From Acinetobacter sp. (GTDB lineage Bacteria > Pseudomonadota > Gammaproteobacteria > Pseudomonadales > Moraxellaceae), in the NCBI RefSeq assembly GCF_041919735.1, contig NZ_JAYRTF010000016.1, forward strand, positions 14,459 through 78,458: 64,000 bases of DNA. Direction: 5' to 3'. This document shows positions 33,856 through 37,404 of the stretch, one piece after another. The notes under the pieces were generated by a model. It searched no databases. It was not told the DNA's origin and saw only the letters and a program-made list of their open reading frames with translations. The position numbers and the translations under genes were made by a program. Every line of letters begins with the position of its first letter. Positions within the stretch are counted from its first letter, which is position 1.

Positions 33856-35475
33856 ATGCAAAATAACAAACGCGTAGCGCTAGATGCTCAACAATCGCAT
33901 CTTTGGATCATTGGCGGAGGCATTGCCGGCATGGCGGCCGCCGCATTTGCGATCCGTGATGCAAAAGTTCCGGCAAAAAATATCCATATCTTAGAAGAGC
34001 TCGATGTTTCGGGCGGCGCAATGGACGGCGGGCACACCCCTCATGCAGCGAAAGCTTGGGTGACACGCGGCGGGCGCATGCTGACCGATGAAACCTATCT
34101 ATGCCTTTGGGACTTATTCTCCAGCATCCCCTCTTTAGAAAATCCGGATATTTCAGTGCGTGAAGAATGCCGTGAATTTAATGACAAAGTGAAAACCCAT
34201 GCCAAGGCGCGTTTGATTGATGCTGAGCATGTGATTGCGGACGCCGAAAAACTTGGCCTGAACACCCTGCACCGCGCGCAAATGCTGCGCTTATTGGCGC
34301 TGAAAGAAGAAAAAATCGGCAGCCGCCGTATTGATGAGTTTTTTGATGAGGCATTTTTTGCAACCAATTTCTGGCGCATGTGGCGCACCACTTTTGCTTT
34401 TCAAAAATGGCACAGCGCCGCTGAGTTAAGGCGCTATTTCCTGCGTTTCATTCAGGAGCTGCCGCGGATTCATACCTTGGCAGGCGTAAAACGCACCAAG
34501 TACAATCAATATGATTCAATGATCCTGCCTTTGCAGCGCTGGCTGACAGCGCAAGGCGCCGATATTCGTTTTGGGCATTATGTTACAGATGTGGACTTCA
34601 TTACGAATGCTGAAACTCAAGAGCGCCAAGCCTCGCACCTGTATGTGCAGCTTCCTGAAGGTTCTGAGCAAATCAATCTGAAACCTCATGATTTGGCCAT
34701 TTTCACCTTAGGCTCCATTACCGCAGATACGCGTTATGGCGGCAATCATGACGTGCCCGCCCTCATCCGTGACCGGCAAGACCATGGCTGGACACTGTGG
34801 GAAACGTTGGCGCAAAAAGCCCCGGACTTTGGTCGTCCAATGAGCTTTTATGGCAATGTCGATGAACATAAGTGGGAATCTTTCACGCTGACCATGCAAG
34901 ATGATGCGCTGCTGAAACGCATGATTGACTATACCGGCAATGAGCCGGGCACAGGCGCACTGATGACATGGTATGAATCGGGCTGGCATCTCTCCATTGT
35001 GGTTCCAGCACAGCCGCATTTTGCTGACTTGCCGGCAGGCAGGCATACTTTATGGGGCTATGGTTTCCAAATCGACCAGATCGGCGATTATATTAAAAAG
35101 CCAATGTCTGCAGCCACAGGCCAAGAAATTTTAACGGAACTGGTGAAGCAGTTAGGTTTTGATGACCTTTTGGATCATGTTTTAGCCACGACTGAAGTCA
35201 CCACAGCCATGATGCCTTATGCCTCGGCCCTGTTTGCCTGCCGTAAGCCCGGTGACCGCCCGCAGGTGATTCCGAAAGGTTCGCAAAACTTTGCCTTCCT
35301 TGGACAATTTGTGGAAATTGAAGACGATGTGGTCTTTACCGTCGAATATTCCGTACGCGGCGCCATGCTGGCCATTTATGAATTCTTCGGGGTCGAGCGC
35401 GAAATCCCAGATATCTACAATGGCCTGCTGGACCCGAAAGTAGGCTTGAAAGCCTTGGAAACAGTGTTTCATTAA
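33856..35475 (+). CDS. ohyA: Oleate hydratase (MCRA family, FAD-dependent fatty-acid hydratase)
   Basis: GGGIAGM FAD motif, GGAMDG, RGGRM, FWRMWRTTFAF, YNQYDSMILPL, FTVEYSVR; RBS gaggg before ATG 33856. Confidence 0.9.
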   Translation: MQNNKRVALDAQQSHLWIIGGGIAGMAAAAFAIRDAKVPAKNIHILEELDVSGGAMDGGHTPHAAKAWVTRGGRMLTDETYLCLWDLFSSIPSLENPDISVREECREFNDKVKTHAKARLIDAEHVIADAEKLGLNTLHRAQMLRLLALKEEKIGSRRIDEFFDEAFFATNFWRMWRTTFAFQKWHSAAELRRYFLRFIQELPRIHTLAGVKRTKYNQYDSMILPLQRWLTAQGADIRFGHYVTDVDFITNAETQERQASHLYVQLPEGSEQINLKPHDLAIFTLGSITADTRYGGNHDVPALIRDRQDHGWTLWETLAQKAPDFGRPMSFYGNVDEHKWESFTLTMQDDALLKRMIDYTGNEPGTGALMTWYESGWHLSIVVPAQPHFADLPAGRHTLWGYGFQIDQIGDYIKKPMSAATGQEILTELVKQLGFDDLLDHVLATTEVTTAMMPYASALFACRKPGDRPQVIPKGSQNFAFLGQFVEIEDDVVFTVEYSVRGAMLAIYEFFGVEREIPDIYNGLLDPKVGLKALETVFH

Positions 35476-35497
35476 GGTTTTAATATTTTAATATCTG

Positions 35498-35538
35498 GCG
35501 GTAAAAGCATGCTTTGGTGCTTTTACCGCTTTTTTTTT
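35498..35538 (+). terminator. Intrinsic terminator after the oleate hydratase gene
   Basis: gcggtaaaagca-tgctttgg-tgcttttaccgc followed by T9. Confidence 0.88.
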
Positions 35539-35635
35539 GCAGCATGGACAGGCTGCAAATAACAAAACTGACTTGAAGCTTTGCCTGCACAAATGCAGTA
35601 TAAGAGCTGTCTCAAACTTAAAAAAAAAGCAACCT

Positions 35636-36091
35636 ATGAAACTTGCAGAAGCGCTCCTGCTGCGCAGTGATCTACAAACCAAGCTTGCATCATTGCAGCA
35701 GCGCATCAACAGCAATATCTTAGTGCAGGAAGGCGATGCGCCGAGTGAAGATCCAAATCAGCTGATTCAGGAAGCCACAGCAGTCAATACCGAACTGCAC
35801 GATTTGATTCAGCGCATCCATGCAACCAATGCACAGGCGCAGGCCGCCAGCGGTAAAAAGCTTTTAGCGCTGATTATTGAGCGGGACGCGCTCACCAGCC
35901 AGCACCGCATTTTACAGCAGGCCATTGACAGTTCACGGCGTGAAAACGGCCGCTACAGCTCCAGTGAAATCCGCTGGGTAAAAACCGTGGCGGTGGCGGA
36001 TCTGCAAAAACAGGCGGATGACATCAGCAAGCAATTGCGTCAGAATAATTTAGAAATTCAAGCTTCAAATTGGCAGATCGATTTAATTTAA
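35636..36091 (+). CDS. DIP1984-family coiled-coil protein (151 aa; start moved to MKLAEAL)
   Basis: N-terminus MKLAEALLLRSDLQ, VQEGDAPSEDP, YSSSEIRW and C-terminal LEIQASNWQIDL match the DIP1984 family pattern as I recall it. Confidence 0.85.
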   Translation: MKLAEALLLRSDLQTKLASLQQRINSNILVQEGDAPSEDPNQLIQEATAVNTELHDLIQRIHATNAQAQAASGKKLLALIIERDALTSQHRILQQAIDSSRRENGRYSSSEIRWVKTVAVADLQKQADDISKQLRQNNLEIQASNWQIDLI

Positions 36092-36381
36092 GCATTTGGA
36101 TAGCTCTGTTATACACCTAGATTGTTATATACCTCGATGGCTATGGCACCTATCCATTCCAGTTCGGGCATATTGGGCGAGTGCAAGGCCTTTTCCGCGT
36201 TTGTAAGGCTTTAATTCAACAAACGCTTGCAGGAAGTAAGGCGTCTGCTTCAAATTTTTACACCTCTGACGCAGCACCATGCATCTCTTACTTCTTACAG
36301 ATCACGCCGCACTACCATGCACTGACAATATGCCCACCCTATTGCACATTCAGTATTCAGCCCGCCGCTAAATGATGCGGC
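36092..36381 (+). ncRNA. Candidate structured non-coding RNA directly downstream of the DIP1984 gene
   Basis: Nested perfect helices 36097-36103/36150-36156, 36166-36175/36326-36335, 36180-36185/36318-36323, 36197-36204/36219-36226, 36233-36240/36287-36294 and 36241-36245/36268-36272; no credible ORF. Confidence 0.65.
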
Positions 36382-36409
36382 TTAAGCGGTACAGCTTCAT
36401 TTCAGCCGC

Positions 36410-36601
36410 TTAGTCATGCTGAATTTGATCGGCCAACACCGCTTCATTCTTAGGCATTTTATAGTCCTGATCAGATGCAGGCATGCCGCCGATAATCATT
36501 GTGCGCACTTCTGTTTTCGGCTTGTTTAAATCTTCCTTTGCATCACAGCCTGCCACGCTCAGCAGCAGGCACGCCATTATGGCTGCGGATAAAATTTTCA
36601 T
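36410..36601 (-). CDS. Small lipoprotein
   Basis: Lipobox VAGC after a hydrophobic signal; 63 aa. Confidence 0.7.
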   Translation of the reverse strand: MKILSAAIMACLLLSVAGCDAKEDLNKPKTEVRTMIIGGMPASDQDYKMPKNEAVLADQIQHD

Positions 36602-36801
36602 CCTATCCCCTCCATGTTTATCCTTATGCCTTTCAGCATAGCACTGCTGTATAAATTTTCACCTTAAATTTCGCATTTGGATATCCATTTCACGCGCAGC
36701 AGATCCTCATAAACCTTAATGCATATTTTTCAAAATCTTAAGATCAATTTAAAATTGCTTGATGGATAAATTTACAAAAAACCACAATGCAGAATATTTA
36801 C

Positions 36802-36855: not shown

Positions 36856-37404
36856 ATGTCACTTCGCCAAGAACGCGCCGCGCAAAACCGTGAGGAACTG
36901 CTGGCCGCTGCAATCCGTATTTTCCGCAGCCATGGCATTAATGCGCCGCTGCAGCTGATTATTGATGAAGCGCAAGTTGGCCGGGCAACCTTTTACCGCA
37001 ATTTTTCAGACCGCCGCGAGCTGGTGCTGGCGCTGATGGAACAGGCCTTAGACCGCTTGGAAAACCGTGCGCGCAATCATTCGCAATATCAAGACGGCTT
37101 TATCCGCCTGATTCAAGACCATATTCACAACATTCCCTATCTGACTGCCCTGATGGAATATTGGCGGGTGATAGATCGGGATGACCCAGCCATGGTGCAG
37201 ATCTACCAGCGCCGCGATCAGATTCTGCAGCCGCTGATTGATACCGCCATTGCCAATGGCACCTGCCGCAGCGATTTCAGCCCGCGCGACTACACCATGG
37301 TGACCTCGATTTTGCGGGCCGCGCTGCAAGGCTATACCGATGCCGATCAGGAAAAACTGGCGGCGCGCGCCGTGGATTTATTACTGAACGGCATCCGCCC
37401 ATAG
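36856..37404 (+). CDS. TetR/AcrR family transcriptional regulator
   Basis: N-terminal HTH IIDEAQVGRATFYRNF. Confidence 0.93.
   Translation: MSLRQERAAQNREELLAAAIRIFRSHGINAPLQLIIDEAQVGRATFYRNFSDRRELVLALMEQALDRLENRARNHSQYQDGFIRLIQDHIHNIPYLTALMEYWRVIDRDDPAMVQIYQRRDQILQPLIDTAIANGTCRSDFSPRDYTMVTSILRAALQGYTDADQEKLAARAVDLLLNGIRP

What the first reader, a model, noticed from the sequence alone, without database searches (positions are those of the whole stretch)
36107..36360. Periodic short motifs inside the candidate RNA suggest multiple protein-binding sites
TGTTATACACCT (36107-36118) and TGTTATATACCT (36123-36134) form a near-perfect direct repeat 16 nt apart. A third xCACCT ends at 36151, 17 nt further on, and TACACCT recurs at 36259-36265 in a predicted loop. 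ACCATGCA occurs twice (36276-36283 and 36314-36321) and ATTCAG twice (36348-36360). Several copies fall in predicted unpaired segments. Inference: iterated motifs would suit a symmetric oligomer such as DIP1984 binding one RNA at several sites. The 12-bp repeats could instead be DNA operator half-sites.
Basis: partly seen in the sequence, partly recalled or inferred. Interest (0 to 1): 0.6.

Follow-up and report, generated by a model that had tools for sequence, protein, structure and literature searches.

The report
Heptad-repeat RNA beside DIP1984 gene
The flagged stretch belongs to a real, folded RNA of about 170 bases that follows a small gene of unknown function in many bacterial phyla. 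Its true periodic feature is a row of 7-base units, while the eye-catching 12-base repeat is a recent local duplication that no relative shares.

Summary
All listed motifs exist at the stated coordinates, but only the 12-mer pair exceeds chance. That pair is a 16-nt tandem duplication (36107-36138) inside a ~46-nt insertion between the DIP1984 stop codon and the RNA. None of 27 aligned relatives has it.

The rest of the interval lies in a conserved structured RNA (core 36166-36335, + strand). It has a closing stem P1, helix P2 and two H-type pseudoknots (P3/P4 and P5/P6). Over 54 sequences from many phyla, 95.5% of cells pair and 24 of 27 pairs show compensatory changes.

A model built from one Acinetobacter clade finds this RNA directly 3' of the DUF6847/DIP1984 gene in 30 of 30 further genus loci and about 75 of 80 loci from other phyla. 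No Rfam family matches and no paper was found.

The real periodicity is a row of 7-nt units (NNNN-Y-A-C, 36257-36312), conserved across phyla and unpaired in the consensus.

RtcB or RtcA RNA-repair genes flank the pair in 19 and 15 of 80 loci, but this genome has neither.

The likeliest reading is a DIP1984 oligomer binding the heptad row. Binding is inferred, not shown. This scan has already noted the same gene-RNA pair on other DNA.

The parts
35636..36091 (+). DIP1984 / DUF6847 gene (151 aa), often mis-annotated 'septicolysin'
   Evidence: Pfam PF20935, E 1.3e-48. NCBIfam NF038048, E 1.1e-51. PDB 3KDQ, E 3e-23. AF2 model with pLDDT 95.5 and four long helices.
36092..36165 (+). Spacer between stop codon and P1. 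It is 74 nt here, against a median of about 12 nt (range -1 to 46) in other lineages, and holds a ~46-nt lineage-specific insertion.
   Evidence: Alignment of 28 loci. Spacer lengths. Unique in the genome.
36107..36138 (+). A degenerate third copy follows, to about 36155.
   Evidence: TRF period 16, 2.0 copies, 87% matches. Direct-repeat family D2. Absent from 27 relatives.
36166..36335 (+). Core of the conserved structured RNA, from P1 5' strand to P1 3' strand
   Evidence: Conserved at 71-94% identity in 28 species by BLAST. CM R1 scores 222 bits here and finds one copy in the genome. Covariation.
36166..36175 (+). P1 5' strand, pairs with 36326-36335
   Evidence: All 10 pairs show compensatory changes across phyla and 95.7% of cells pair.
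36180..36185 (+). P2 5' strand, pairs with 36318-36323. The conserved internal loop 36176-36179 / 36324-36325 separates P1 from P2.
   Evidence: 97.5% of cells pair and 5 of 6 pairs are compensatory.
36187..36226 (+). Pseudoknot 1. P3 is 36187-36192 with 36205-36210. Hairpin P4 is 36197-36204 with 36219-36226. The P3 3' strand lies in the P4 loop, followed by a conserved A-rich loop segment.
   Evidence: P3 was not in the CM and still pairs in 92% of cells across phyla. P4 has at least 7 pairs in 40 of 54 sequences.
36233..36272 (+). Pseudoknot 2. Hairpin P5 is 36233-36238 with 36246-36251. P6 is 36241-36245 (in the P5 loop) with 36268-36272.
   Evidence: P6 pairs in 96.9% of cells and all 5 pairs are compensatory. 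P5 has at least 4 contiguous pairs in 48 of 54 sequences.
36257..36312 (+). Heptad row: eight consecutive 7-nt units, NNNN-Y-A-C. The six units at 36271-36312 are the part conserved across phyla. The first of these overlaps the end of P6 by 2 nt.
   Evidence: Phase analysis: position 6 is A in 80% and carries 0.97 bits, while other phases average 0.6-1.8 of 6 units. 28 of 54 sequences have A in all six units. 0 of 20000 shuffles of the 70 nt from 36256 reach the observed count. No consensus pairing is predicted there.
36310..36326 (+). Most conserved block of the family: the CAC-YACC segment running into the P2 3' strand and the GA of the internal loop.
   Evidence: Invariant and near-invariant columns in A6.
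36348..36360 (+). ATTCAG x2, 7 nt apart, lying 3' of P1 and outside the conserved RNA
   Evidence: Sequence. Not conserved in relatives.
36410..36601 (-). Convergent 63-aa Acinetobacter lipoprotein gene, which bounds the intergenic region
   Evidence: NCBIfam NF038215, E 1.1e-25.

Best explanation
The interval is the tail of the DIP1984 (DUF6847) transcription unit, and it encodes an undescribed structured RNA of about 170 nt.

Shown:
- The RNA folds into a closing stem (P1), a second helix (P2) and two H-type pseudoknots.
- Together these enclose a consensus-unpaired row of six to eight 7-nt units with an almost invariant A at position 6.
- Gene and RNA are inherited together across at least seven phyla and on Acinetobacter plasmids.
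- In a quarter of the loci from other lineages the pair sits between or beside rtcB and rtcA RNA-repair genes.

Inferred:
- The RNA is made as the 3' part of the DIP1984 transcript.
- DIP1984, a four-helix protein modelled as a symmetric dimer, binds the heptad units one protomer per unit, so three or four dimers would sit on one RNA.
- The pseudoknot scaffold holds the row and protects the RNA ends.
- The particle acts in an RNA-damage or RNA-quality response. That role would be functionally analogous to Ro60 with Y RNA, but without homology.

TACACCT and the two ACCATGCA copies are pieces of the heptad row and of P2.
For: RNA fold:
- 28 close sequences pair in 97.9% of cells, with 10 compensatory pairs.
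- 54 sequences from many phyla, aligned by plain MAFFT, pair in 95.5% of cells. 24 of 27 pairs are compensatory, 0 of 500 shuffles reach this, and slid controls reach at most 45%.
- RNAalifold recovers P1, P2, P3 and P6 on its own and predicts nothing in the heptad row.
- G-U pairs fit only the + strand.

Linkage to the gene:
- The CM matches sit at the DUF6847 stop codon, same strand, in 30 of 30 genus loci and about 75 of 80 loci of other lineages at E < 0.01.
- It also matches the unannotated gap after the gene on A. baumannii plasmid pMRSN56-4.
- There is one copy in this genome.

Heptads.

Spacer repeat absent from relatives.

Repair context: RtcB is adjacent in 19 of 80 loci and RtcA in 15 of 80.

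Protein:
- The AF2 model has pLDDT 95.5.
- The homodimer model scores 0.64, with the best of 3 controls at 0.00. That mark was reached by 20 of 30 proteins solved as pairs of one chain and by 1 of 23 solved as single chains.
- The three runs agree in at least 97% of contacts, and partner pLDDT is at least 88.
- A like structure (3KDQ, four chains) exists, so this pass may come from memory.

No Rfam family matches. No paper holds 'DUF6847'.
Against: - No tool here tested protein-RNA binding. The one-protomer-per-heptad idea rests only on periodicity plus a modelled dimer.
- This genome has no RtcB, RtcA or TROVE gene (99.6% complete), so a repair role cannot depend on them here.
- The conserved residues of DIP1984 include several acidic ones. 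These could mark an enzyme active site rather than an RNA-binding face.
- Transcription, RNA ends and abundance are not established. Only contigs of RNA libraries were available.
- In the window P1 is not followed by the U-run seen in many relatives.
Confidence: 0.55

Rival explanations
1. The RNA is a purely cis-acting 3' UTR element of the DIP1984 mRNA. It would act as a stabiliser against 3' exonucleases, as part of a terminator, or as a site where the protein feeds back on its own message. It would not be a stable partner RNA.
For: P1 starts a median of about 12 nt after the stop codon, sometimes overlapping it. Many relatives have a U-run right after P1. The Enterococcus variant is followed by a canonical terminator.
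Against: Two pseudoknots, invariant junction nucleotides and a phase-conserved heptad row across phyla are far more than end protection needs. Some loci carry two RNA copies in tandem after one gene.
Confidence: 0.2
2. Protein toxin with RNA antitoxin (type III-like). DIP1984 would be harmful alone, and the adjacent RNA would neutralise it by binding several protomers.
For: The pair is a compact two-part module. It occurs on hundreds of Acinetobacter plasmids (344 of 373 plasmid records), beside other addiction genes in some loci (a Phd/YefM antitoxin in Comamonas), and in phage records.
Against: The RNA lies downstream, not upstream, and is single-copy rather than 34-36-nt tandem repeats. The protein is an all-helical bundle, not a ToxN/AbiQ-type fold. 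There is no PADLOC match. The link to rtcB/rtcA points to repair.
Confidence: 0.1
3. The heptad units are not protein sites but RNA-level mimics or decoys. They could be repeated stand-ins for a 7-nt loop attacked by ribotoxins, or substrates handled by RtcB/RtcA. DIP1984 would act only as a chaperone or enzyme on them.
For: Neighbourhood with rtcB and rtcA. The unit length of 7 nt equals that of a tRNA anticodon loop (general knowledge). The row is unpaired in the consensus.
Against: The unit consensus does not resemble the anticodon-loop consensus, which has U at loop position 2 and a purine at position 6 (my own comparison, from general knowledge). This genome lacks the Rtc enzymes.
Confidence: 0.08
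4. One reading: the two 12-bp repeats are DNA operator half-sites for a transcription factor.
For: They form an exact near-repeat beyond chance. A TetR-family gene lies 700 bp away at 36856-37404.
Against: The repeats are absent from all 27 aligned relatives, although those with enough downstream sequence in the locus keep the same flanking genes. They are direct repeats with a 16-bp period, not palindromic. They sit between two convergent gene ends, not at a promoter. No further exact copy exists in the genome, and one-mismatch copies are fewer than the reversed-pattern control.
Confidence: 0.03

Closest known systems
Ro60 (Rsr) with bacterial Y RNAs (YrlA/Yrn1) in rsr-yrlBA-rtcBA operons (PMC4201824, PMC7790460)
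   Same: A small-protein gene lies next to a structured noncoding RNA whose 5' and 3' ends form a long closing stem. The pair recurs beside rtcB and rtcA.
   Different: This genome has no TROVE/Ro60 gene. No Rfam family of any kind, so no Y RNA model either, matches. The partner is a 151-aa four-helix protein. The RNA has two pseudoknots and a heptad row instead of a tRNA-like domain.
Proteins that read evenly spaced short repeats on one RNA: TRAP on the trp leader (GAG/UAG repeats), CsrA on CsrB (GGA repeats) (general knowledge)
   Same: One RNA carries a row of short, evenly spaced, single-stranded units suited to a symmetric oligomer.
   Different: The period is 7 nt and the key base is an A followed by C. 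The row is enclosed in a folded scaffold. The protein family is unrelated, and binding is not shown.
Type III toxin-antitoxin pairs (ToxIN, CptIN, TenpIN) (general knowledge)
   Same: Protein gene plus adjacent pseudoknotted RNA form a mobile two-part module found on plasmids and phages.
   Different: The RNA is downstream and single-copy. Its repeats are 7 nt, not 34-36 nt. The protein fold is different.
DIP1984 family / Pfam DUF6847 (structure 3KDQ, Corynebacterium diphtheriae)
   Same: The window's protein is a clear member.
   Different: No function is recorded for the family. The name 'septicolysin' in plasmid papers is an annotation label that those papers do not test. No RNA partner is annotated in the plasmid record examined.

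Membership tests
DUF6847-associated structured RNA (undescribed; noted earlier by this scan on other DNA) | Lies directly 3' of a DUF6847 gene on the same strand | tested here: met
   Window: stop codon at 36091, P1 at 36166. 30 of 30 genus loci and about 75 of 80 loci of other lineages.
DUF6847-associated structured RNA (undescribed; noted earlier by this scan on other DNA) | Closing stem and internal helices kept by compensatory changes | tested here: met
DUF6847-associated structured RNA (undescribed; noted earlier by this scan on other DNA) | Row of evenly spaced 7-nt units | tested here: met
   36257-36312. The phase is conserved in 54 sequences.
Bacterial Y RNA | A Ro60/TROVE partner gene in the genome, usually adjacent | tested here: not met
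   PF05731 has no match in the 99.6% complete genome.
Bacterial Y RNA | Match to an Rfam Y RNA model | tested here: not met
   No Rfam family of any kind at E up to 10 in the window, or at E up to 0.1 on the RNA in 20 diverse loci.
Type III antitoxin RNA (ToxI-like) | Tandem repeats of about 34-36 nt upstream of a ToxN/AbiQ-type endoribonuclease gene | tested here: not met
   The RNA is single-copy and downstream. The only tandem repeat has a 16-nt period, lies outside the RNA and is not conserved. The protein is DUF6847.
Transcription-factor operator (DNA) | Site conserved with the regulated genes and placed at a promoter | tested here: not met
   The repeats are absent from all 27 aligned relatives and lie between convergent gene ends.
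DIP1984 family protein (PF20935 / NF038048) | Full-length match above the curated cut-offs | tested here: met
   165 bits against a cut-off of 27. 174.9 bits against a cut-off of 70.
Known anti-phage defence systems (PADLOC) | Match to a PADLOC protein model | tested here: not met
   No match at E up to 0.01.

The most novel reading that the evidence does not exclude
DIP1984 dimers assemble on the six to eight heptad units of this double-pseudoknot RNA. Together they form a defined ribonucleoprotein particle, a new class of RNP unrelated to Ro60/Y RNA. It is widespread in bacteria, plasmids and phages and works in the response to RNA damage.
Probability: 0.4. Interest if true: 0.9.

Novelty: categorically new. 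Interest (0 to 1): 0.75.

Why it matters
A protein family with a solved structure but no known function (3KDQ, deposited 2009) would gain a partner. That partner is a phase-conserved, pseudoknotted RNA that no catalogue holds, found from Planctomycetota to clinical Acinetobacter baumannii plasmids, where the gene is still labelled 'septicolysin'.

The link to rtcB and rtcA offers a second protein-RNA module for bacterial RNA repair besides Ro60/Y RNA. The function of that repair system is a long-standing open question. The heptad row gives a direct, mutable handle for binding experiments.

For annotation, the intergenic gap after every DIP1984 gene should be treated as an RNA gene.

Tried and rejected
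Searches and tools that gave nothing:
- Rfam found nothing on the RNA. A sub-threshold mir-341 hit in L096 lies 3' of the RNA.
- PADLOC gave no match.
- Foldseek against PDB found only 3KDQ; the rest are weak coiled-coil look-alikes.
- Longer DUF6847 proteins show no informative fusions.
- The search for related loci with the 51-row alignment failed for lack of a conserved stretch and worked with a 10-row alignment.
- Burroughs and Aravind 2016, on RNA-repair systems, is not held, so I could not check whether it mentions this protein.

RNA libraries:
- Contigs from four studies cover parts of 35400-36715.
- Contig depth cannot rank parts of a locus and DNA may be present in these libraries, so this shows neither transcription nor RNA ends.

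Structural ideas I dropped:
- A helix between the two CAUG cores of the ACCATGCA copies, because there is no covariation.
- A P7 helix set inside the heptad row: inconsistent between lineages and not predicted.
- A standard kink-turn at the P1/P2 internal loop, because it would break the covarying register of P2.
- The window's minimum-energy pairing 36228-36240 with 36287-36299, which is not kept in relatives.
- Coding potential of the mechanical ORFs at 36125-36280 (-) and 36181-36375 (+). They have no Pfam match, and relatives have indels that are not multiples of three.

Full report
**Setting.** The interval 36107-36360 lies in the 318-nt gap between two genes. One is a 151-aa gene at 35636-36091 (+). 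It is a clear DIP1984/DUF6847 member: Pfam E 1.3e-48, NCBIfam E 1.1e-51, PDB 3KDQ E 3e-23. The other is a convergent 63-aa Acinetobacter lipoprotein gene at 36410-36601 (-). The closest named proteins come from Acinetobacter pragensis, at 91% identity. An intrinsic terminator at 35497-35530 separates the DIP1984 gene from the oleate-hydratase gene upstream.

**The observation.**
- Only the 12-mer pair is beyond chance: 0.16 matches expected, and 0 of 100 shuffles reach the observed number.
- Tandem Repeats Finder shows it is a 16-nt unit repeated twice at 36107-36138.
- CACCT and ACCATGCA occur in the window at chance frequency.

**Homologous loci.**
- BLAST of the gap against 247 species of the genus found a sharply bounded core of about 190 nt (window about 36152-36343) in 28 species at 71-94% identity. 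A truncated remnant (L004) lies beside the lipoprotein gene with no DIP1984 gene.
- In every complete case the core lies right behind a DIP1984 gene.
- The spacer from stop codon to first helix is 74 nt here, against a median of about 12 nt (range -1 to 46) in other lineages.
- The inserted segment is unique in the genome. The 12-mer has no other exact copy, and one-mismatch copies are fewer than for the reversed control pattern.
- I read this as recent slipped-strand duplication in an unconstrained spacer. The DNA-operator alternative has nothing in its favour beyond the repeat itself.

**The RNA fold.**
- The core shows obvious compensatory changes. On 28 close sequences, six helices pair in 97.9% of cells, with 10 pairs changed on both sides.
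- Window coordinates of the helices:

| Helix | 5' strand | 3' strand |
|---|---|---|
| P1 | 36166-36175 | 36326-36335 |
| P2 | 36180-36185 | 36318-36323 |
| P3 | 36187-36192 | 36205-36210 |
| P4 | 36197-36204 | 36219-36226 |
| P5 | 36233-36238 | 36246-36251 |
| P6 | 36241-36245 | 36268-36272 |

- P3 pairs into the loop of P4, and the loop of P5 pairs downstream as P6. The fold therefore holds two H-type pseudoknots.
- G-U pairs fit the + strand only, the strand of the gene.
- A covariance model built from this one clade, with nested helices only, finds one copy in the genome.
- It finds a match right after the DUF6847 gene in all 30 further genus loci, at 46-222 bits.
- DUF6847 occurs in 128 of 247 species of the genus. 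In a sample of 400 genomes of the class, only this genome had a true match.
- I fetched 80 DUF6847 loci from other lineages. They include Planctomycetota, Myxococcota, Comamonas, Undibacterium, Verrucomicrobiota, Bacteroidota, Hydrogenedentota and other Acinetobacter.
- About 75 of these have a match at E < 0.01, always on the gene's strand and nearly always starting at its stop codon.
- On a plain MAFFT alignment of 54 such sequences, P1, P2, P3 and P6 pair in 95.5% of cells. 24 of 27 pairs are compensatory, 0 of 500 shuffles reach this, and slid controls reach 33-45%.
- P3 and P6 were not in the model, so they are an independent check.
- RNAalifold recovers the same four helices. P4 and P5 are found sequence by sequence.
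- No Rfam family matches the RNA, either in the window or in 20 diverse loci.
- No paper in the library contains 'DUF6847'. 'DIP1984' occurs once, in an unrelated epidemiology paper.

**The true periodicity.**
- Earlier notes of this scan on other genomes mention 7-base units in RNAs beside DIP1984-like genes. I tested that here.
- Read in steps of seven, 36257-36312 gives eight units, each with A at position 6 and C or T at position 7.
- Two further units follow at 36313-36326, and the last of them fits the pattern again.
- No shuffle in 20000 of the 70 nt from 36256 reaches the observed best-phase count of 8 units in 10.
- In the 54-sequence set, anchored on the conserved YACC block, the six units upstream have A at position 6 in 80% of cases (0.97 bits) and C at position 7 in 58%.
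- 28 sequences have A in all six units. The other six phases average 0.6-1.8 of 6.
- Lineages with fewer in-phase units mostly carry a hairpin inserted within one unit.
- The six units at 36271-36312 are the conserved part. The two upstream units are in phase in the window's clade only.
The first ACCATGCA spans a unit boundary. The second lies in the most conserved block of the family and runs into P2.
- Their exact spellings are not conserved.

**The protein.**
- AlphaFold gives a confident four-helix bundle, pLDDT 95.5. Its only structural relative in the PDB is 3KDQ.
- The complex model supports a symmetric homodimer. It scores 0.64, with the best of 3 controls at 0.00.
- That mark was reached by 20 of 30 proteins solved as pairs of one chain and by 1 of 23 solved as single chains.
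- The runs agree in at least 97% of contacts, and partner pLDDT is at least 88.
- Because 3KDQ holds four chains, this pass may reflect memory of that entry.

**Context.**
- Clustering the neighbours of the 80 loci gave two recurrent families. Pfam names them RtcB (19 loci) and RtcA (15 loci), in orders such as RtcB, DUF6847, RNA, RtcA.
- This is the place that Ro60 and Y RNAs hold in the Salmonella rsr-yrlBA-rtcBA operon (PMC7790460, PMC4201824).
- The window's own genome has no RtcB, RtcA or TROVE gene.
- In Acinetobacter the gene is also on 344 plasmid records. On pMRSN56-4 the RNA fills the unannotated gap after the gene, next to znuD2.
- Four phage-collection records carry the gene. An Enterococcus record has a weak but correctly placed match (13 bits), followed by a canonical terminator.

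**Expression.** Contigs of RNA libraries from four studies cover parts of the locus. Contigs show neither ends nor levels, and DNA may be present in such libraries. I count this as no more than presence.

**Conclusion.**
- Shown: the region is a new, widely conserved structured RNA tied to DIP1984, and it carries a conserved 7-nt periodicity.
- Inferred: the RNA is the 3' part of the gene's transcript.
- Inferred: DIP1984 oligomers bind the heptads.
- Inferred: the particle serves RNA repair or quality control.
- The same gene-RNA pair has been noted by this scan before on other DNA. What this window adds:
  - the Acinetobacter clade;
  - cross-phylum covariation for both pseudoknots;
  - the phase statistics of the heptads;
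  - the counts of RtcB and RtcA neighbours.

Noticed in passing
L053:1970-2432; L123, L124, L125, L126, L129, L131 (about 1997-2460): Several Acinetobacter loci carry two copies of the RNA in tandem after one DUF6847 gene. One genome (G159) has a second DUF6847 paralogue just downstream. In L128 and L130 (Hydrogenedentota) the RNA lies upstream of the matched gene, behind another ORF that ends 14 nt before it.
   Followed up: partly
L161:1650-1860 (Enterococcus phage-collection record OR846626.1): A distant DUF6847 gene (33% identity) is followed by a weak but correctly placed match to the RNA model (13 bits) and then a canonical intrinsic terminator. This suggests the family reaches Firmicutes in diverged form and sits in the 3' UTR.
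   Followed up: partly
A6 alignment, P4 region (e.g. L092, L085, L096, L079): In the G+C-rich lineages hairpin P4 keeps a central G-G mismatch in otherwise perfect 9-10-bp stems. The Acinetobacter version has a perfect 8-bp stem.
   Followed up: no
window 36101-36160, in RNA-library contigs of runs X5 and X7: One contig has three extra bases after 36107, inside the tandem repeat. Another skips 36081-36160 with 26 other letters, like relatives that lack the insertion. The spacer therefore varies between strains or species in wastewater.
   Followed up: no
L140:3192-3308 (-): An ALIL pseudoknot (IS3-family frameshift element, 81.9 bits) lies about 1 kb from the DUF6847-RNA pair in an A. lwoffii contig, which fits a mobile context.
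   Followed up: no
L113:2209-2502 and the seven other loci in its ORF cluster, all Comamonas among those printed: A Phd/YefM-type antitoxin gene follows the RNA in Comamonas, where IMP dehydrogenase lies upstream. The neighbours of the pair differ widely between lineages.
   Followed up: no
window 36348-36360: The two ATTCAG copies are themselves 7 nt apart but lie 3' of the closing stem and are not conserved. This is probably coincidence.
   Followed up: partly
window 35497-35530: A strong intrinsic terminator (14-bp stem plus T-run) follows the oleate-hydratase gene. The DIP1984 gene and its RNA are therefore likely a transcription unit of their own.
   Followed up: no
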